Source: Octopus vulgaris (lineage: Eukaryota). Taken from it: 64,000 bases of DNA. The notes beneath the pieces were generated by a model. The model was not told where the DNA came from. It worked only from the letters and a program-made list of their open reading frames with translations, and did no database searches. Numbering within the stretch: the first letter of the stretch is position 1; the number at the start of each line of letters is the position of its first letter. The stretch covers positions 45,942,001 through 46,006,000 of the forward strand of contig OX597822.1 of the NCBI GenBank assembly GCA_951406725.2, in the 5' to 3' direction. Positions 76-60,200 of this stretch are shown in pieces. The position numbers were made by a program, and so were the translations under genes.

Positions 76-126
76 GCATTCTGAAGAGATTTACTTACCC
101 CAGTAAATTGAAATGATCATAAATGC
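76..126 (+). ncRNA. Type I hammerhead ribozyme motif, canonical core
   Basis: gcatt-CTGAAGA-gatttact(tacccc)agtaaatt-GAAA-tgatca-TA-aatgc. All three stems pair. Predicted cleavage after 121. Confidence 0.85.
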
Positions 127-596
127 CACCCTCATCTCTTCTTCTTACTTCTTTGTTACCTATATCTAATTAAAGACATGCCAGTGTAAACCATGAGTTT
201 CCCATTGTTATCATATCCATTTTCTCCTTTTATATATATATACGAGAAAGGTTGAGTTCAATTAGAATATTTTTATTTTGTGGGGTCCAAAGTTAGATTT
301 CTAATAAAGATTCTTCATATTAAATTTGTAGCTTACTATTGTAAGCATTTTATTAAAAATATGAAAATTATACAAGTATAAGGTGTATTATGAGCATTTA
401 TAGAGCACAGTCCTATATAAATTCAACAAAACAATTTAAGATGGAGAAGAGATGTTAAAAGTTTGATAGCCTTTTAATCCATTAAAATGTTATCAAACTT
501 TGAACATCTTTTCTTCTCCATCTTTAATGGTTTGTTGAGATGATACAGGACTGTGTTTTATAAATGTTCATAACACATCAAATACTTATATATATG

Positions 597-1529: not shown

Positions 1530-2254
1530 TATTCCACACCCATACCAACAATCCAACATACCTCCATCATCAGTTGCTCCTCAGATATCATTATGGTTTC
1601 GACACCTAGGCGGTACCATTCGATCTGGCGATTTCAACAGCACTAAAATAAGTGTTGTTTGGGAACAAACAAACCAAAGAAGGGAACTTCATGGGGAAAA
1701 GGTTCTTCTCTCTATCTGGTGGGATTGCAAAGGAGTAATTCACTTTGAATTGTTGCCACCTAATGCAACAATCAATACTCAATGTACTTTCCCTGGTTAT
1801 CAGCAATTAGAGCGTTTGAACCAAGCTTTGAAGAAAAGAAGACCCGCTTTAGTGAATCAAAAAGGAGTGATGTTTCATCAGGAAAATGCGTGACCCCACA
1901 CTACAAAGATCACATCACAGAAGATTGAAGAGCTTGGTTGGGAAAAAAACCTCTCATCCACCTTATTCTCCCGACCTTAACTCCTTCAAACTACCATTTG
2001 TTTCTTAGTTTACAGAATCATTTGGGGGACATAACTTTCACAAAGCAGGAGGAGGTCGAAACTGGCATTTCAGAGTTCTTTGCTTTGAAACCAAAAGAGT
2101 TATACATTGATGGGATTAAAAAGCTTGTAAATACATGGAAGGAAGTCATAGATAACTAGGGAAAGTACATTGATGATTAAATTTCAATTAAATATAACAT
2201 TTGATCATTTGTTTGCTTTATTCAAAATTTGGATAGAATTTATGGGATGACCTG

Positions 2255-2890: not shown

Positions 2891-2931
<41 letters not shown>

Positions 2932-2932
2932 T

Positions 2933-2964
<32 letters not shown>

Positions 2965-3995
2965 CAATATAAGGGTAGCAAAAAATTCAATAGAAATTTT
3001 TTCGGCACCAGCGGTCTTGTGAGAAAGAAAAAATAGTCAATGGACTATATAATGTACATTCAACAATAATATTAAGGAATGGCCTTAATAGGCCATTCAA
3101 CTCACTAAAACGAGCAGCTAAACTCAAACCGCTAAATAGTAGTAATTCAGAAATCAAAGGAAAATTAAAAACATTTACCCTAATCATCTTTGGACTATGC
3201 ATAGTTTCAACGTACTTTTAGGTAAACCAGCCTAACCAAATTAAATTTAATTTAATCAAGTCAATTTACCACTGGCCCATCTCATCGGCAAAGAAGCCAG
3301 GAGGAATAAATATTCCACGAGGCAACAGCATCGATGCCTTGGGAATATATACTGGTTTATATAGGCTGGTCTACCAAAAAGTATGTCGAAACTATGCATA
3401 GTCCAAAGATGATTAGGGTAAATGTTTTTAATTTTCCTTTGATTTCTAAATTACTACTATTTAGCGGTTTGAGTTTGGCTGCTCGTTTTATTGAGTTGAA
3501 TGGCCTATTAAGGCCATTCCTTAATATTATTGTTGAATGTACATTATATAGTCTGTTGACTATTTTTTCTTTCTCACTAGACCGCTGGTGGCAAAAAAAT
3601 TTCTATTGAATTTTTTGCTACCCTTATATTGATTAATTAATGATTTTTTGCTAATTCTGAAATTAAATCAGCAGTTTATATTTGCTGCTGATAAGTTGGC
3701 GCGATGACAGTAGATTTTGAAAATTTAGAGTATATATTCCCAAGGCACCAATGCTGTTGCCTCGTGGAATATTTATTCCTCCTGGCTTCTTTGCCGATGA
3801 GTGGTAAATTGACTTGATTAAATTTAATTTAATTTAATTAGGCTGGTTTACCCAAAAGTACGTCGAAACTATGCATAGTCCAAAAATGTTTTTAATTTTC
3901 CTTTGATTCTGAATTACTACTATTTAGCGGTTTGAGTTTAGCTGCTCGTTTTAGTGGGTTGAATGGCCTATTAAGGCCATTCCTTAATATTATTG
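2965..3995. mobile_element. Second Penelope-like/retrozyme element: inverted copy plus partial tandem (~480-bp period), in (TA)n
   Basis: 2965-3351 is inverted relative to 3361-3632 and 3729-3995. ctatgcatag recurs at 3392 and 3869. Mirrored ORFs 2987..3202 and 3334..3609. Confidence 0.72.
3187..3294 (-). ncRNA. Type I hammerhead ribozyme motif with long stem II (core variant CCGAUGA)
   Basis: tctttg-CCGATGA-gatg/ggccagt...gctggtt/cgtt-GAAA-ctatgcatag-TC-caaaga. Stem III is palindromic; cleavage triplet GUC. Confidence 0.75.
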
Positions 3996-4063
3996 TTATA
4001 TATATATATATATATATATCATCATCATCATCATCATCATCGTTTAGCGTCCGTTTTCCATGC

Positions 4064-10984: not shown

Positions 10985-11106
10985 GCGCGCGCACACACAC
11001 ACACACACACACATATAGTTGGAATTTACAAAAAACAAAAGACAAAGACAAGTGTATAAACAACAAAAGAGGTGTATTAGTTTAATGCTTGGGAAGGTGA
11101 GAAAGT

Positions 11107-11142
11107 CTTTTACATTTCGAGCCTATGCTCTTCAACAGAAAG
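11107..11142 (-). ncRNA. Minimal hammerhead-like motif (gagc/gctc family), core CTGTTGA
   Basis: cttt-CTGTTGA-a-gagc(atag)gctc-GAAA-tg-TA-aaag. Related copies at 20212-20246(-), 23124-23159(+) and 62563-62597(-). Confidence 0.55.
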
Positions 11143-11224
11143 GAACATGAGAAAATAAACAGAGAAGGAATAAAAAAAGCTTTAGTGGTTAAAAAAAGCT
11201 GATATATATATATATATATATATA

Positions 11225-15977: not shown

Positions 15978-15980
15978 TAT

Positions 15981-16444
15981 ATATAAATTTATAAATAAGA
16001 ATAATATTGATATTTAAGTATCGATCTTAAATATCAATTTTATCCTTATTTATAAATTTATATATTTTGTCATTGTATTCACTGCGGTATTTATTTTGAT
16101 AATATCACATGGGGAGCTGTCAGGCAGGCAAATTTAAGCTGGTCGTGTACATACGTGCATATATATGTATGGGCATTCATATATGTGAGTATAATGTATG
16201 TTCTGTATATATATATATCTGTATTTATGTGCTATCTGGTATATTCAACTGAAGAAGGCAGAGCTTCTCTTATGCAAAGTCAGAAATCCAGGATCTTGAA
16301 TTATCCAGAAAAATCTTTTTTGCTAGTTTATTTTGCCTGTCTACTCTCCTAGTGCTATATGAACATTTAATGTGGCCTTAGGGTCAGGGTTTTGACTGCT
16401 ATTTCAGCGTGGTGGTATCTCTCAGGTACCCTAATTTATAGTTT

Positions 16445-21037: not shown

Positions 21038-21090
<53 letters not shown>

Positions 21091-21316
21091 TTATATATGA
21101 GGATAATATCGATATTTAAGTATCAAATTATCAAGTGGCCAGCATGAAAAAAATACCTTACAAAGGTAAAAAATTTTTTAACAATTAAAAATGAGGGTGT
21201 CTAAAAGACACCAACATGCCGAAATAGCAGTCGAAATTCTGACTATAAAACCACGTTAAATGTTCATATCGCACCATGAGGTAAAGCGGAGGGACAAAAC
21301 ATACAAGCAAAAATTA

Positions 21317-21390
21317 TTGAATAATTCAAGATCCAAGGATTTCTGGTTCTGCTTTAAATAAGCTTTACCGTCATCAATTGAATATATCAA
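21317..21390 (-). ncRNA. Hammerhead motif in the inverted 480-bp unit
   Basis: Reverse complement of 21683-21756. Confidence 0.72.
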
Positions 21391-21682
21391 GGGTACATAA
21401 ATACAGATATATATATGCACAGCAAACGATATACTTACATATACGAGCGCCGTACATACATACATATGCACGTATGGACACAGCCATTTTAATTGCCCGC
21501 CAAATCACCGCATAAATACGATATGGTTAAAATACGATATGGTTAACCATATCGTATTTATGCGGTGATTTGGTGGGCAATTAAAATGGCTGTGTCCATA
21601 CGTGCATATGTATGTATGTGCGACGCTCGTATATGTAAGTATATCGTTTGCTGTGCATATATATATCTGTATTTATGTACCC

Positions 21683-21756
21683 TTGATATATTCAATTGAT
21701 GACGGTAAAGCTTATTTAAAGCAGAACCAGAAATCCTTGGATCTTGAATTATTCAA
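21683..21756 (+). ncRNA. Type I hammerhead motif, unit 1 (core UUGAUGA, C3U variant)
   Basis: ttga.tat.attcaa-TTGATGA-c.ggt...gctt...aagc...acc.a-GAAA-tcc(tt)gga-TC-ttgaat.tat.tcaa. Predicted cleavage after 21743. Confidence 0.75.
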
Positions 21757-22162
21757 TAATTTTTGCTTGTATGTTTTGTCCCTCCGCTTTACCTCATGGT
21801 GCGATATGAACATTTAACGTGGTTTTATAGTCAGAATTTTGACTGCTATTTCGGCATGTTGGTGTCTTTTAGACACCCTCATTTTTAATTGTTAAAAAAT
21901 TTTTTACCTTTGTAAGGTATTTTTTTCATGCTGGCCACTTGATAATTTGATACTTAAATATCGATATTATCCTCATATATAAATTTATATAATTCGTTAT
22001 TATATTCACTGCGGTGCTTATTTTAACCATATCGTATTTATGCGGTGATTTGGTGGGCAATTCAAATGGCTGTGTCCATACGTGCATATGTATGTATGTG
22101 CGACACTCGTATATGTAAGTATATCGTTTGCTGTGCATATATATATCTGTATTTATGTACCC

Positions 22163-22236
22163 TTGATATATTCAATTGATGACGGTAAAGCTTATTTAAA
22201 GCAGAACCAGAAATCCTTGGATCTTGAATTATTCAA
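22163..22236 (+). ncRNA. Type I hammerhead motif, unit 2
   Basis: Identical to unit 1, shifted by 480 nt. Confidence 0.75.
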
Positions 22237-22642
22237 TAATTTTTGCTTGTATGTTTTGTCCCTCCGCTTTACCTCATGGTGCGATATGAACATTTAACGT
22301 GGTTTTATAGTCAGAATTTTGACTGCTATTTCGGCATGTTGGTGTCTTTTAGACACCCTCATTTTTAATTGTTAAAAAATTTTTTACCTTTGTAAGGTAT
22401 TTTTTTCATGCTGGCCACTTGATAATTTGATACTTAAATATCGATATTATCCTCATATATAAATTTATATAATTCGTTATTATATTCACTGCGGTGCTTA
22501 TTTTAACCATATCGTATTTATGCGGTGATTTGGTGGGCAATTCAAATGGCTGTGTCCATACGTGCATATGTATGTATGTGCGACACTCGTATATGTAAGT
22601 ATATCGTTTGCTGTGCATATATATATCTGTATTTATGTACCC

Positions 22643-22716
22643 TTGATATATTCAATTGATGAAGGTAAAGCTTATTTAAAGCAGAACCAGAAATCCTTGG
22701 ATCTTGAATTATTCAA
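22643..22716 (+). ncRNA. Type I hammerhead motif, unit 3
   Basis: Shifted by 960 nt from unit 1; one substitution (gatgaagg versus gatgacgg). Confidence 0.75.
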
Positions 22717-23259
22717 TAATTTTTGCTTGTATGTTTTGTCCCTCCGCTTTACCTCATGGTGCGATATGAACATTTAACGTGGTTTTATAGTCAGAATTTC
22801 GACTGCTATTTCGGCATGTTGGTGTCTTTTAGACACCCTCATTTTTAATTATATATATATATATATATGTAAACACAATAGAGGACATTAAAACATTTGG
22901 ACAGATGATACAAAGGCGGACAAGAGAAATATCAATTAGAAGGACAGGCAAAAAAAGTCAGGTCATTTGTGGCTTTCTTTCCTCAGTCAAATTCCAGAAG
23001 TCACGACCATTTCAGGCAGTTACACTTGAGATGATACGATCTGGTTGCCCTTCAATCATTTGCCATGCCTGACTGCTAATTCCACAAGTATTTTATTCTC
23101 TCTCTGTATATTTTCTCATATTCCTTTCTATTGAAGAGTGTAGGCTCAAAACGTAAAAAAATTTGTCACTTTCCCAAGTGTCAAACTAATACACCTGTTT
23201 GTTGTTCATACACCTGTCTTCGTCTCTGGTTTAACTGTAAATTTCAACTATATATATTC

Positions 23260-41092: not shown

Positions 41093-41207
41093 CTATGAAT
41101 GCTTATCTCCAAATGTGAAGTTGGGAGTTTGACTGATGGTGAGTGATGGCCCCGGCAAGGGAGTGGAAGAAACACCAGATGAGCCACAAATGCTTTCACC
41201 AAAATGT
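41093..41207 (-). CDS. TLK: Probable last TLK coding exon: HFGESICGSSGVSSTPLPGPSLTISQTPNFTFGDKHS*
   Basis: Strong polypyrimidine tract (A-run 41212-41235 on +) and CAG acceptor. Phase fits the previous exon. Ser/Gly/Pro-rich tail ending in TAG at 41095-41093. Tail homology is weak. Confidence 0.8.
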
Positions 41208-51231: not shown

Positions 51232-51372
51232 CTGGAAGAATAGAAGAAAAAAAATGGTTTTCACTGATTACCAAAATAAAATAAAATATAAAAACAAATA
51301 TATTTCTGCTGCTGTCTAATGACCCTACTTCGACACACTTATGGGTGACTAACCTAAGGAATGGTTACTTAC

Positions 51373-51542
51373 CAGGTTTAAGGTCATAATGTATCACAGG
51401 TGGCTTAATTTCATTTAGGTATTTGAGAGCACTGACAGTCTGACAGATAATGGAGCGTGCCTCCTTTTCAGGAATGCACTTGTTCTGCTTGAGGTAGAAA
51501 TCCAAGTCGTTGCCATCACAGTATTCTAACACAGTACAGAAG
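51373..51542 (-). CDS. TLK: TLK exon: [56 protein letters not shown](G)
   Basis: Within ORF 51365..51709. HYDLKP catalytic loop typical of TLKs. CAG/GTAAG sites, 170 nt. Confidence 0.97.
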
Positions 51543-52870: not shown

Positions 52871-54914
52871 CACATGACCTCCCCACCTCACTCTGTATGC
52901 ATGTGTGTGTGTGTGTGTGTGAGTAAATGTTCAGCCGTCATTTATTTTGAAAATGACCAGATTAGCAACTTTTCTCTTTGCGGGTCTTGAGATGGTTTAT
53001 CAGGCATAAAATCCACGGTTACAGTGGCGGCAGATAATAGCAAAATCAGGACTCGGTGGGACTCTTGCTTACCATGTAGAAGACCTCTTCTCTTTTGTTT
53101 CTCTGATCATACATACATACATATATGTATATACACTCCCTCTCTCTCTCCCTCCTTTTGTGTGAAAAGTCTAATTTGACAAACTGTCAATAATAATCCT
53201 CTCTACTATAGGCATAAGGCCTGAAGTTTTTTTGGGAGGCAGGGATAGTTGATTATATCAGCCCCAGTGCTGCACAGCTAATTCATGCCATCAACACCAA
53301 AAGGATGAAAGGCAAAGTTGACCTCGGCAGAATTTGAACTTAGAACATGAAGACTAATAAAATACTGAAATATTGCTAAGCATTTCGTCTGGCACACTGA
53401 TGATTCTGTCAGTCTGCCACTTTACAAATTTTCAATAATAATATAAACTAAATATATAGAGAGATTTTCATACTGAACTCTGTAAAGAAAATTCTAGATT
53501 TCTGCAAGATAAGGTGTCTTCTACTTTGTAAAAAAATTATCTGGTAAAAACAAATGTTCTTCACTAGTTTCTATATGTTATTGTATGTTTATTTTTTAAT
53601 ATGAATAAATTCTCTCCCTAAAATAGTTTTTGGTTCATTTAATGTCCTATGAAAATAATAGTGTTAGAAAAAATATAGGTTTGGATCTGCAACTTTTTCA
53701 AAAATTATACAAGAATTCGGCAATGAAATAATCTGGGGATTTGCTGTACTATGTCATAAGCATCACTTGATAGAGTTAATTAACATTGTTTAATGGTAAT
53801 TAAGTCTTTATTTTCCAGTATCAAATGAAGAAATTAACAAAACAGAGCCATATAACTTTTAAGCTCTAAAGATTCTAAATAATGAAATATGTAGAAGGAG
53901 GATTCTTATTGTGAAGTCATTACAAAGACCCAGCGTTCAGTAAAAGGAGAGTGATAAGTATAAAGATTTTTATGTATGTATGTGTTTGTGTGTATGGGTG
54001 GGTGAGTTTGTACAGTGTGTGTGTGTGTGTGCATATATATATGTATACTTTATTATAATTAAAGCTGCAAAAACATAACAAAAAACTGCTACTCAGAGTT
54101 TCACATTCCCATTCGTCGGACAATAAAGCATATTACTCTACCTATGGTATTTGAGGACTGTTTTTTCCCCATTTTGTTTCACATTTACATGCTTACTTTG
54201 GTGTGTATATATATACACACACACACACACACACAGCATCCAACCTATAAAGGACAGTGGCAGGACGGATTAAAAAGATCATTGTACAAAATAAAGAATT
54301 ATACCAATTCCATCTTCTGTTTACTTAATTGATCATTACCTCAACTAATATTGTGGAATTCTTGCTCTAGTCCACTCAGCTGGCAAAAGTGAGTAGTACT
54401 TGTATTTCAAAGGGCCAACCTTGTCACACTTTGTTACACTGAATCTCCCTGAGAAGTATGTTAAAGGTACAGGTGACTGTAGAGTGTTCGGCCACTTGCA
54501 TGTAAATTTCACAAGCAGGTCATTCTGTTGATTGGATCAGCTGGAACTCTTGTCATCGTAACCGACGGAGTACCTCCTATGTATATAAGTACAGGCATGG
54601 GTAAATGGTAAAGAAGCCCACTTCTGAACAATGTGGTTTTGGTTTTGCATGCACTGCACAGCACCTTGAGTAAGTGCTTCCTGCTATAACTTAAGACCTG
54701 AAATTCTGGTGGAGGGGGCTTGTCAGTTACAAAGCACAAAGCCTCAAATTTTGGGGAAGGGATTAAGTCAATTACACTGACCCTAGTGTGTAACTGGTAC
54801 TTATTTAATCAACCCTGAATGAAAGCAAAGTTCACCTCGGCAGAATTTGAACTCAGAACACAACAACAGACAAACTACTGTGTCACCTTAATAATAATGA
54901 ATAGTAAAAAATCA

Positions 54915-55729: not shown

Positions 55730-56310
55730 AAATGCCCTGATGCAGTAACAGGCAGTGGCTCTTGATCTTAACTGATTGGAAATGTTATCATTTACATTGT
55801 TTTGTCTTGGTATAAAAGATAGGTTACTGCAAATATTTTGCTCATTACCACAGATTTGCTTGTCAGTTGTTTGACCTTAACCAGTTGAGCATGTCCCTTA
55901 GTGGCTGACAATATGTGCATCTCTGATCACGAGCAGAAGTAATGAGGGAGCATCATAGCTATATGTTGAGAGGGATTCTTTGGGGTTTGAATAATTCACC
56001 TCTGAAAACTTGGGTGTTTTGTTCAACATCCTTAAACAACCCTTATTCAGGGACCTTTTGAGCGGGATGGGTTACTCGACCAGAATAAAATTCTAACTGG
56101 GCCCCACCTGCAAGGTTATGTGCTGTTTATCTTGATATGAGGTCACCATGTCGTGCACATATGGTTGTGATGCATGCGCCTAGTGTACCCTTATCAGACG
56201 GGTAGTCATGATGGATATACTGAGCTTCGAATATTTTACTCCAGTGTCACTTTGATGGCATGCACTGCTCTCTCACTCAATAATAATAATAATAATAATA
56301 ATAATTATTA
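55730..56310 (+). repeat. Interspersed repeat with (TAA)n tail; second direct copy at 58012-58530
   Basis: Colinear similarity over ~520 nt between the two copies. Confidence 0.8.
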
Positions 56311-57232: not shown

Positions 57233-60200
57233 GTAATGCTGAGAAACCCCCTTTAGTAATGACTGACTGTGGGATTGCACCTAGAAATTTACCCTCCCAG
57301 GCACAAGTCCGGGCAACATTGTTTATGGAAGACCAGCAGTCGCCCATGCATACCAGCCTCCCCTCTCCATGCCACCAGTGTTTTCCAAGGGAAAGGCAAA
57401 GGCCAATACAGCTTGGCACCTGTGACGTCGCAACTCATTTCTACAGACGAGTGAACTGGAGCAACATGAAATAAAGTGTCTTGCTCAAGAGCACAACACG
57501 CAGCCTGGTCCGGGATTCAAACTCACAACCTCATGATCGTAAGCTCAACGCTCTAACCACTGAGCCATGCGCCTTCACAATAATAGTAATAATAATAACA
57601 ATAATAATAGTTGGGGACAGCTAGGATTTTTGAGACTGATACTTGGATTAGTAATCGAGTATCAAAGGTTATAATGTGCCGAAAGAGACCCTGTGAGACC
57701 TCTGATATCAGGCTGCTGTTGGCTCTCACAGAATCGACCAGAGCAAACAAGACTGAGCACTCTGAGTAGTAAAACAACAACAATAATAATAATGGTTTCA
57801 AATTTTGGCACAAGGTCAGCATGTTCAGTGGATGGTGCTAGTCGATTTCATCAACCCCAGTATTCAACTGGTACTTATTTTATTGAGCCCAAAACGATGG
57901 AAGATGAACTCGACCTTGGCAGAATTTGAACTCAGGATGACAAAATGCTATAAGCATTTTGCCTGACGTGCTAACTATCTTGCCAGCTTGACACCTTATA
58001 ATAATAATAATAAATATCCCTGATGCAATGCTAGGCAGTAGCTCTCATGGCTTTTGATCTTAAGTGTTGTCTGGGTATAAAAGATGGGCTACAGCAAATA
58101 TTCTGTTCAATACCACTGATTTGCTTGACCATAACCAGTTGAGCATGTCCCTTACTGGTTGACAATACGTGCACCTTTGATGACAAGCAGGAGTATTGGG
58201 GGAGCATCACAGCCATGTATTGTTGGGGATTCTTTGGGGTTTAAATAAATCACCCCTGGAAACATAGGTGCTTTGTTCATCATCCCTAAACAACCCTTAT
58301 TCAAGGACCTTTTGAGTGGGATGGGCTACTCAATCTGAAGAAAATTCTAACTAGGCATCACCTGCAGGGTCATGTGCCGTCTATCTCGATATGAGGTCAC
58401 CATGTCACACACATATAGTTGTGATGCATGTGCCTAGTGTACCCTTATTAGATGGGTAGTCATGATGAGTATATTGAGCTTTGTGGTCACTTTCATGGTG
58501 TGCACTGCCCTCTCACTCAGTAACAGTAATAATATACTTAGCACTCCAGGTGAAATGCTTAGCAGTATTTCGTCTGTCTTTACGTTCTGGGTTCAAATTC
58601 CATTGAGGTCAACTTTGCCTTTCATCCTTTCAGGGTCAATAAATTAAGTGCCAGTTATGCACTGGGGTCAATTTATCGATTTAATCCGTTTGTCTGTCCT
58701 TGTTTGTCCCCTCTATGTTTAGCCCCTTGTGGGCAATAAAGAAATAAGTAATAATATACAGGCATACACAGAGAAAGATAAAATTAATGTTCTAGATCTA
58801 AATTTAGCAACTCTAGAAACTAAAAGAGAAACTGCTTTTTCTTTTTTTTTTATGTGATAACATTAGTTGGTGATGTCAGATATGGTCTGGGTCAGTACAG
58901 AACCAAACTTTGTTGTATGAAATAACAATGTTTTACAAATTATTTATAGCCCACAATCATGGGCTGACATGATGAGCAATGCATGTATGTGTTTGAGTGT
59001 GTGATTGTGTGTAGGGAATGCTAAAAATGGTTGCATCATTACACAGGGAGAAAGTGAAATATTTCTTCTTTTCTTCTTTACTATTGATTGAAAGAAAGCT
59101 CGGCTGAAATTGAGACTGTTGTACACTGACAAAATGTATATCTGTATCTATATATGCTGGGTGAATCAATAAAACATCCGAACAATAAGATGTAATTCTA
59201 TTCAAGCTAATGCAAGAGAATCTCCAAGTTCTCAAAAACTCAATAATAAAACTATTAGGAGAGGGAGAGAGAGGGGGGAGAGAGAGAGAGAGAGAGAAAA
59301 GATACTCAAGGGAAATTTGAATCAATAAAGGGCCAATGTAACAAAAAACATGTTCAGGTGAAATGGTTGTGTGATTAAGATACTGGGCTGAATCCTCATG
59401 GGATATTAGAGGTAGCACTGCCTTAGGGCAGGAGCACACTAGGCTGTTGCCTGAGGCATGACAGGTATAGGGGCTCAATTCTGATTTCTTTTATGCTGTA
59501 GAGTTGCTGTCAATACATAAATACTATAGGGCCCAGACTATTGATTGGTCCTGGGGCCTATAATGTTGCTAAGACAACCCTGATTAGAGGGTTATGGAAT
59601 TAATGACAGTGCTAACGAAGGAGGGGATACTCTTTATTGCTGAAATGAATTCTGGCCACAACAGGTCAAAACATAAAAGTAGTAAAAAAATAAGGTGTAT
59701 TTTAGCTTTAGTTTAATTCACATAACGAACTCCTTAATGAATTACTACAATATGAGGAGCCATAACCCCAGTATTTAACTGGTACTTTATTTTGAGATGA
59801 AAGGTTGACCATGCCACAACTTTATCTCAGAGTCTCAAGTAACGTAACTACTTACCTCAAAGTAGCAGTTTGGTTTGCCACTCTGATCATTTTGCCAATC
59901 TAAGGGCATCCAGCTGTAGAAACTTTGCCAGATCAAATTGGAGCCTGGTGCAGCCTTTTGGCATGCCAGCCCTCAATCAAACTGTCCAACCCATGCCAGC
60001 ATGGAAAGTGGACGTTAAACGATGATGATCACTCTTTTCCCAAACAACAACAAATGTTGTTTTTCATAGGTGCAAGGTAAGCTTATACATGAACATAGAC
60101 AACTAATTCCCACAGACCTCATATTTTTATAGTTTTTGGGTTCAATCCCACTGCATGGCATCTTGATCAAATATCTTCTACGACAGACCCAAGTTGACAA

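What the first reader, a model, noticed from the sequence alone, without database searches (positions are those of the whole stretch)
2965..3995. Independent element with the same inverted-plus-tandem ~480-bp architecture and a long-stem-II HHR
Seen: the sequence is unrelated to the 21-kb array but has the same layout. Only the inverted copy has a complete HHR (3187-3294, minus: CCGAUGA, ~75-nt branched stem II, palindromic ctatgcatag, GUC). The first direct copy starts within stem II, and the second has a 9-nt deletion right after the core. Inference: both families are mobilised by the same PLE-type mechanism.
Basis: partly seen in the sequence, partly recalled or inferred. Interest (0 to 1): 0.75.

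Follow-up and report, generated by a model that had tools for sequence, protein, structure and literature searches.

The report
Octopus ribozyme-bearing mini retrotransposon insertion
A decayed, protein-less jumping element in octopus DNA that carries a self-cutting RNA motif with an unusually long side arm; it is a variant of a known kind (Penelope-like retrotransposon derivatives), and its ends hint at how such small RNAs get pasted into genomes.

Summary
2963-3997 is one insertion in a (TA)n run of an Octopus genome: an inverted 5'-truncated copy (A) joined head-to-head to about 1.3 direct units (B, C; period 477, 486 before a deletion). It is unrelated in sequence to the 21-kb array. Only A keeps a whole type I hammerhead (3294-3187, cut after 3193; 0 comparable hits in 40 shuffled windows). 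Corrections: stem II (73 nt) is an unbranched rod, and C has a second, 13-nt deletion in stem I. U4C is in both surviving cores, so it came from the template. The layout is the textbook Penelope-like element (PLE) footprint, and the ribozyme most resembles Hydra-clade PLE hammerheads. Best reading: a non-autonomous PLE derivative (retrozyme-like), a few million years old, probably inactive here. What differs from print: stem II three times the longest in the Hydra table, and an inverted end lying 99-101 nt beyond the direct end in three insertions of two unrelated families (published tail 30-40 bp). No family consensus, partner element or cleavage could be tested. New variant of a known kind.

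The parts
2893..2964 (.). Left part of the TA-rich microsatellite target
2963..3353 (-). Copy A: inverted, 5'-truncated copy (391 nt) carrying the only complete hammerhead
2963..3061 (-). 99-nt extension (PLE-type 'tail') present at the inverted end and read through in B, absent from the direct end C
3187..3294 (-). Type I hammerhead ribozyme motif; predicted cut after 3193
3282..3288 (-). Core CCGAUGA (U4C variant), identical in copy C at 3794-3800
3209..3281 (-). 73-nt unbranched stem II; 22-bp rod at 3270-3221, stable only on the ribozyme strand (-16.9 vs -4.3 kcal/mol)
3194..3205 (-). Stem III, 12-nt perfect palindrome; predicted dimer interface (-15.9 kcal/mol duplex)
3354..3361 (.). Head-to-head (5'-5') junction, ambiguous, TA-rich
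3362..3633 (+). Copy B: direct, 5'-truncated, starts in the 3' arm of stem II; keeps GAAA, stem III and cut site (3403) but no core
3634..3728 (+). Single-copy part of the inferred monomer
3729..3997 (+). Copy C: direct copy; hammerhead broken by a 9-nt deletion (stem II 5' arm) and a 13-nt deletion (stem I 3' arm)
3961..3982 (+). 9-bp hairpin 15 nt before the direct 3' end; an analogous hairpin precedes the direct ends of the 21-kb and 16-kb elements
3998..4019 (.). Right part of the (TA)n target

Best explanation
A single, now decaying insertion of a non-coding, non-autonomous derivative of an endonuclease-bearing Penelope-like retrotransposon (a retrozyme-like element with a ~486-nt monomer). 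Shown: layout, (TA)n flanks, hammerhead motif, strand-biased RNA structure, absence of a recognisable ORF. Inferred: (1) a multimeric or circular RNA of the monomer is bound in trans by the RT/GIY-YIG protein of a (TA)n-targeting PLE, most likely of Hydra type, with Neptune not excluded. (2) The endonuclease nicks both strands of a (TA)n run. (3) Each free end primes reverse transcription at an internal, fixed RNA site, 131 and 230 nt downstream of the ribozyme cut. (4) The two cDNAs are joined at their truncated 5' ends, giving the head-to-head structure with a 99-nt tail on one side. (5) In the parent RNA the hammerhead, probably as a stem III dimer or with protein help, trims multimers to monomers. 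Since insertion the copies have drifted about 2% each, and the ribozyme at this locus is probably slow or off.
For: Five PLE hallmarks together (against PMC8557442 and PMC3846280). Both outer ends are 3' ends of the unit. A purified PLE protein nicks and extends both strands of AT-rich DNA and starts RT at two internal sites whose spacing is the tail (PMC11167929). The end offset is 99 nt here and 101 nt in the unrelated 21-kb family, whose 16-kb relative (81% identical) ends at the same two sites. One period folds at z -6.9 on the ribozyme strand, against -2.6 to +2.6 for 14 of 69 background tiles. Hydra-clade PLEs occur in Octopus, prefer (TA)n, and have hammerheads with a ~4-bp palindromic stem III; 11 of 24 end 88-153 nt past the cut, as here (131 nt). 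Host: a kinase exon in the window is 57/57 identical to Octopus bimaculoides TLK2.
Against: Only one locus: no other copy in the window, so the monomer, the ends and U4C are not checked on a family. No sequence link to any autonomous PLE: motif look-ups in the PMC8557442 consensus files found no matching element, and the 76-81-codon open frame has no homolog. Rfam gives no hammerhead hit, though it also misses the canonical-core motif at 81. The 108-nt motif alone is not more stable than shuffles (z -1.4). The active monomer fold has predicted probability 0.006-0.01, falling to about 1e-5 with flanks because a rival hairpin buries the core. The antisense strand also folds well (z -5.5). No target-site duplication can be read in (TA)n.
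Confidence: 0.72

Rival explanations
1. It is the remnant of an autonomous PLE insertion whose ORF was deleted at this locus only, so B and C are pLTRs and there is no 486-nt non-autonomous family.
For: 3634-3728 is single-copy and the period rests on one junction. pLTR-internal-pLTR plus an inverted pLTR is the standard autonomous layout (PMC3846280). C carries other deletions.
Against: No ORF remnant or protein homology. The whole period is highly structured like a retrozyme RNA (z -6.9). The 21-kb family proves that 480-nt monomers with the same geometry exist in this genome.
Confidence: 0.15
2. The parent RNA no longer used its hammerhead: U4C and the long insert mark a dead ribozyme carried passively, since PLE insertion does not need cleavage. 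This is compatible with the best explanation and changes only step 5.
For: U4C lowers activity in vitro (PMC3088659). Hammerhead mutants do not affect insertion by the anole PLE in vitro (PMC11167929). 8 of 9 Xenopus retrozyme dimers did not cleave (bioRxiv 10.64898/2026.07.22.740005). A rival hairpin is predicted.
Against: All three stems close exactly on the core. The rod keeps pairing with 7 G.U against 1 A.C in A (p 0.035) and 5 against 1 in C (p 0.11). U4C is a natural variant sufficient for viroid infectivity. The active dimer is within 1.4 kcal/mol of the best dimer in the minimal context.
Confidence: 0.3
3. A TIR DNA transposon (MITE or fold-back element): A and B are its 272-bp inverted repeats.
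For: A and B are 96% complementary arms around a 127-nt spacer. The left flank is TA-rich, and mariner remnants exist nearby.
Against: The right flank of B is not a TA duplication and runs on into more element sequence. C repeats the 'spacer' and the arm collinearly, which a TIR model does not explain. The true ends are staggered by 99 nt, and a strand-specific ribozyme is present.
Confidence: 0.04
4. Local rearrangement or assembly artefact of one sequence in a microsatellite, with a chance hammerhead-like match.
For: Microsatellite-rich, palindrome-prone region; such structures trouble assemblies (PMC8557442).
Against: The three copies differ by 3-4.5% with private substitutions, CpG-type decay and indels. 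The motif is beyond shuffled expectation. The same geometry recurs in an unrelated family.
Confidence: 0.04

Closest known systems
Hydra-clade Penelope-like elements, e.g. Hydra-1_Obim (PMC8557442, Files S1-S2)
   Same: (TA)n target; type I hammerhead near the 3' end with a palindromic ~4-bp stem III; cut-to-end distance in the 88-153-nt cluster; present in Octopus; inverted 5' copy recorded for Penelope-13_HM.
   Different: No ORF. Stem II spans 73 nt against 10-24 nt in 24 of 24 Hydra rows; the longest in that table is about 53 nt, in plant PLE-X, flagged as deviating. U4C core. No sequence match found.
Metazoan non-LTR retrozymes (PMC7229834; bioRxiv 10.64898/2026.07.22.740005)
   Same: Non-coding tandem unit with a type I hammerhead, low GC, highly self-paired RNA; proposed PLE mobilisation; 486 nt lies within the 51-972 bp range of the preprint.
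   Different: Larger than the 170-400 nt of the 2020 paper. No two consecutive intact ribozymes. Carries an inverted 5' copy and a tail, which neither text describes for retrozymes ('inverted' 0 hits in the first; 1 reference-list hit and 'tail' 0 in the second). RNA expression and circles untested.
Penelope/Poseidon element PAc of Anolis (PMC11167929)
   Same: AT-rich target, both strands primed, two internal RT start sites downstream of the hammerhead that define a tail.
   Different: Autonomous, ORF starts in stem II, tail 30-40 bp; here the offset is 99 nt and there is no ORF.
Non-autonomous Chlamys elements (MRC1) and pLTR-driven trans-mobilisation in Adineta (PMC8557442, PMC3846280)
   Same: Non-coding or foreign sequence moved in trans with pLTR, tandem and inverted structure.
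   Different: Chlamys mostly lack hammerheads; different hosts and targets.
PLE minimal hammerheads (PMC4209133)
   Same: Palindromic stem III for dimer cleavage, enlarged helix II, pairs of motifs 100-700 bp apart on opposite strands already noted in Schistosoma.
   Different: Helix II there is 7-8 bp; here about 28 bp in a 73-nt arm, and stem III can close on its own (4 bp plus loop).

Membership tests
Type I hammerhead ribozyme | Three stems closing on the core, stem I open | tested here: met
   6, 4 (+rod) and 4-6 bp in copy A
Type I hammerhead ribozyme | Core CUGANGA / GAAA / UH | tested here: inconclusive
   One deviation, U4C, in 2 of 2 cores; a known natural, slower variant (PMC3088659)
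Type I hammerhead ribozyme | Match to an Rfam hammerhead model | tested here: not met
   No hit at E<=10; the canonical-core motif at 81 is also missed, so the test is weak
Type I hammerhead ribozyme | Self-cleavage | not testable with these tools
   Needs in vitro transcription
Penelope-like element (structural signature) | Partial tandem forming pLTR-like direct repeats | tested here: met
   B/C, period 477
Penelope-like element (structural signature) | Inverted 5'-truncated copy adjacent at the 5' end | tested here: met
   Copy A, head-to-head
Penelope-like element (structural signature) | Tail at one end, 30-40 bp | tested here: inconclusive
   An extension is present but is 99 nt
Penelope-like element (structural signature) | Hammerhead within the repeat; microsatellite target | tested here: met
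Autonomous PLE (Hydra, Neptune, Poseidon, Naiad) | RT plus GIY-YIG ORF | tested here: not met
   Longest open frames 76-81 codons, no homologs
Hydra-clade derivative | Sequence similarity to the 3' end of an autonomous Hydra element | tested here: inconclusive
   Only exact short-motif look-ups in published consensus files, negative; one Octopus Hydra family is listed there
Non-LTR retrozyme | Non-coding tandem unit with a type I hammerhead | tested here: met
Non-LTR retrozyme | [quoted passage not shown] | tested here: not met
   B lacks the core and C is doubly deleted
Non-LTR retrozyme | Multi-copy family; expressed linear and circular RNA | not testable with these tools
   No animal genome or transcriptome collection available; no further copy in the window
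TIR DNA transposon / MITE | Inverted repeats at both termini with a target-site duplication | tested here: not met
   Ends staggered by 99 nt; no TA duplication around A-B

The most novel reading that the evidence does not exclude
Octopus carries several unrelated ~480-nt non-coding RNA parasites of a (TA)n-targeting PLE. Their hammerheads have stem II arms (22-73 nt) too long for standard descriptors and tolerate core changes (U4C, C3U). Each target strand is primed at its own fixed RT start site, the two sites ~100 nt apart, with the distal site always on the inverted copy (3 of 3 insertions). The 5' arm of stem II doubles as a switch that keeps the ribozyme off until dimer formation or RT binding. 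This would be direct footprint evidence that retrozyme-type RNAs are inserted by PLE machinery, and a compact substrate for the unsolved origin of PLE inverted and tail structures.
Probability: 0.2. Interest if true: 0.65.

Novelty: new variant of a known kind. Interest (0 to 1): 0.4.

Why it matters
How PLEs make tandem/inverted insertions and tails, and whether retrozymes ride on PLE proteins, are stated open points (PMC8557442; PMC7229834; the 2026 preprint). Short non-coding elements that show the complete PLE footprint give minimal test templates, and two unrelated families sharing a ~100-nt end offset point to a geometric rule. A 73-nt stem II also means hammerhead surveys with short spacers (7-17 nt in the core search of PMC8557442) would miss such motifs. 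The locus itself is an old, probably inactive copy with no sign of a host function.

Tried and rejected
Rfam, whole window (150 of 162 rows shown) and local: no hammerhead family; the miRNA-type hits are microsatellite noise. Search for more copies in the window by blastn and nhmmer: none beyond A, B, C. Remote homology to the 21-kb family, local and anchored at the cut site in four segments: all at shuffle level; also none to the element at 81. The 76-81-codon frame running from stem III as a PLE N-terminus: no Pfam family, 0 of 178 candidates among longer proteins, 0 hits among 1.84 billion representatives; rejected as chance. PLE RT or GIY-YIG in the window: none among 45 frames scanned (43 of the 64 frames of 110 aa or more, microsatellite frames dropped, plus the two element frames); shorter fragments were not scanned. 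The SINE-like ends on both flanks look like an inverted target duplication, but the right piece differs at 4 of 37 positions from the left one and at 2-3 from five other copies; rejected. An intronic position in TLK2: the last coding match is at 41096, about 37 kb away. 'Branched' stem II: not in any fold. Lunse et al. 2017 (PMC5785218) was not held; it, the Terminon paper and the preprint's supplements were not seen and could contain long-stem-II variants. Bacterial, phage and plasmid collections were not searched, as the host is an animal; viral and metagenome collections stayed unchecked.

Full report
Setting. The window is octopus DNA. A kinase exon at 51371-51541 is 57/57 identical to Octopus bimaculoides TLK2 and 93-98% identical to other molluscs; the species is not pinned. 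TLK2 coding matches run from 61673 to 41096 on the minus strand, so the finding lies about 37 kb beyond the gene, among microsatellites and SINE-like repeats.

Anatomy. Between two TA runs (2893-2964, 3998-4019) lie three copies of one sequence: A on the minus strand (3353->2963), B (3362-3633) and C (3729-3997) on the plus strand, with 95 single-copy bases between B and C. A and B are joined at their 5' ends, so both outer ends of the insertion are 3' ends of the unit. The B->C period is 477 nt, or 486 with C's 9-nt deletion counted. Pairwise JC distances are 0.030-0.046. Three of the 12 A-B differences were flagged as CpG transitions, and two more adjacent ones read as reciprocal CpG decay. 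With the calibration quoted in PMC13282606 (JC 0.09 = 25 My) this gives roughly 4-6 My, assuming identical copies at insertion. The 21-kb array is much younger (0.4-0.9%). The two are unrelated in sequence by blastn, local alignment and cut-site-anchored alignment. No further copy of the element is in the window.

The ribozyme. Copy A holds a type I hammerhead at 3294-3187: stem I 6 bp, core CCGAUGA, a 73-nt stem II, GAAA, a 12-nt palindromic stem III and a cut after 3193. A relaxed descriptor found 7 motifs scoring 11 or more in the window (this one 14; position 81, 17; 16249, 13; four in the 21-kb array, 11) against 0.1 per shuffled window, with none of 13 or more in 40 shuffles. Stem II is unbranched: 4 bp, a mismatch, 2 bp, a 4x5 loop and a 22-bp rod. 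The rod is stable on the ribozyme strand only (-16.9 vs -4.3 kcal/mol; z -6.0), with 7 G.U to 1 A.C pairs in A and 5 to 1 in C (p 0.035 and 0.11). The rod is complete in C and partly present in B, so it belonged to the template. The 9 nt missing in C supply most of the 5' arm that pairs with a segment present in all three copies, so C lost them rather than A gaining them (inference). C also lacks 13 nt of the stem I 3' arm. U4C is in both surviving cores. Because CpG decay would turn it back towards U, it most likely came from the template (inference). U4C is a natural variant with lower activity in vitro that still supports viroid infectivity (PMC3088659).

Evidence against easy activity. Rfam finds no hammerhead here, but it also misses the canonical-core motif at 81. 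The 108-nt motif folds no better than shuffles (z -1.4). The active monomer fold has predicted probability 0.006-0.01, or 0.10 if one position takes the base seen in B and C, and about 1e-5 once the 5' flank is included, because a hairpin between the flank and the stem II 5' arm buries the core. The three other hammerheads folded in that call score 2e-5 to 1e-3, so this measure does not discriminate. As a dimer through stem III the active fold is -62.7 kcal/mol against -64.1 for the best dimer and -48.6 for two monomers; with flanks it lies 7-12 kcal/mol above the best dimer. Cleavage is plausible for the parent RNA and doubtful for this copy.

The ends. The direct end lies 131 nt past the cut and 15 nt past a 9-bp hairpin; the inverted end lies 230 nt past the cut. 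In the 21-kb family the figures are 147 and 248, also with a hairpin before the direct end, and its 16-kb relative (81% identical) ends at the same two sites. So the offset is 99 and 101 nt, on the inverted copy in 3 of 3 insertions. One period folds at z -6.9 (antisense -5.5); the 21-kb period at -6.0 (antisense -2.6); 14 of 69 microsatellite-free background tiles gave -2.6 to +2.6.

Mechanism. PLE insertions are described as partial tandems, often with an inverted 5'-truncated copy adjacent at the 5' end, a 30-40-bp tail at one end, a hammerhead in the repeat and a microsatellite bias (PMC8557442; PMC3846280). A purified anole PLE protein nicks and extends both strands of AT-rich DNA, starts reverse transcription at two internal RNA sites whose spacing is the tail, and inserts without needing hammerhead cleavage, which is itself protein-assisted (PMC11167929). 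I therefore infer two primings from the two strands of a nicked (TA)n run, at sites 99 nt apart on a multimeric or circular RNA, with the two cDNAs joined at their truncated 5' ends. PMC3846280 offers an alternative for the inverted junction, self-priming on an antisense template, which these data do not exclude. The element codes for nothing recognisable, so the protein must come in trans. Hydra-clade PLEs fit best: they occur in Octopus, prefer (TA)n and have palindromic ~4-bp stem III hammerheads, and 11 of 24 end 88-153 nt past the cut, 10 at 30-48, 2 at 63-70 and 1 at 355. That fit is architectural; no sequence link was found.

Rivals. (a) A one-off internal deletion of an autonomous PLE (0.15): not excluded, because 3634-3728 is single-copy. 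(b) A passively carried dead ribozyme (0.3; compatible with the main model). (c) A TIR element (0.04): the ends are staggered, A-B has no TA duplication, and C is unexplained. (d) An artefact (0.04): the copies carry private changes.

Comparison and novelty. It works like a PLE insertion and resembles non-LTR retrozymes, which are argued to be non-autonomous PLE derivatives (PMC7229834; bioRxiv 10.64898/2026.07.22.740005). It is not an autonomous PLE, and it fails the preprint's criterion for an active retrozyme. Opposite-strand hammerhead pairs 100-700 bp apart were already noted (PMC4209133). What I did not find in print: a metazoan PLE-type hammerhead with a stem II of this length (maximum 24 nt in 24 Hydra rows; about 53 nt in a plant PLE-X row), a ~100-nt tail, or retrozyme-size units with inverted copy and tail. 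This rests on ten library searches of open-licence papers only; Lunse et al. 2017 was not held and the preprint's supplements were closed.

What I saw of each paper. PMC8557442: passages, supplement searches, and supplement parts 1, 2, 24 and 52 of 59. PMC4209133 and PMC11167929: parts 1-2 of 4. The 2026 preprint: parts 1-3 of 5 and passages. PMC7229834, PMC3088659, PMC3846280, PMC6765202, PMC8969392, PMC13282606 and PMC10085705: passages. Hammerhead numbering (C3, U4, C17) and the label 'SINE-like' for the flanking repeats are from my own knowledge.

Verdict. A real, well-formed but ageing insertion of a non-autonomous PLE derivative. The architecture is known; the long stem II, the templated U4C and the shared ~100-nt end offset are the new details, each resting on very few copies. 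New variant of a known kind; interest 0.4.

Noticed in passing
window 76-126 (+), ending in (TA)5 near 230: A third hammerhead family: canonical core, 8-bp stem II (22 nt), palindromic stem III, score 17; a TA run follows about 109 nt after the cut. Its 5' part may lie before the window start.
   Followed up: partly
window 15979-16443: Older relative (81%) of the 21-kb array with a canonical core where the array has C3U, a short inverted 5' piece, and the same two end sites.
   Followed up: partly
window 21082-22850: Young array (0.4-0.9% between copies): inverted 453-nt copy plus 2.7 direct 480-nt units, four hammerheads with a 27-nt stem II and a mismatch at the stem II base; near-perfect palindromic junction with a 16-nt duplication.
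   Followed up: partly
window 54047-54125 (-): Weak hammerhead-like motif with a second U4C core and a stem III like several Hydra entries, 43 nt from a TA run; stem II is poor and the relaxed score (below 11) is near chance.
   Followed up: partly
window 369-592: 224-nt imperfect palindrome (81%) ending in (TA)n; MITE or fold-back remnant.
   Followed up: no
window 55799-56278 and 58064-58518: Another ~480-nt repeat pair (81%), the first followed by (AAT)n; no hammerhead hit in the scan.
   Followed up: no
window 41096-61673 (-): Exons of tousled-like kinase 2.
   Followed up: yes
window about 1670-1860 (+): Mariner-type transposase remnant, PF01359, E 9e-17.
   Followed up: no
window 11013-11175 and 23091-23253: Dispersed repeat (84%) that by eye carries a decayed minimal-hammerhead-like motif; not picked up by the descriptors.
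   Followed up: no
PMC8557442 File S5, Naiad_Obim and Naiad_Ovul 3' ends: By eye the 'half core' motif has GAAA before CUGAUGA, with a hairpin upstream of GAAA, as in a permuted hammerhead; not tested.
   Followed up: no
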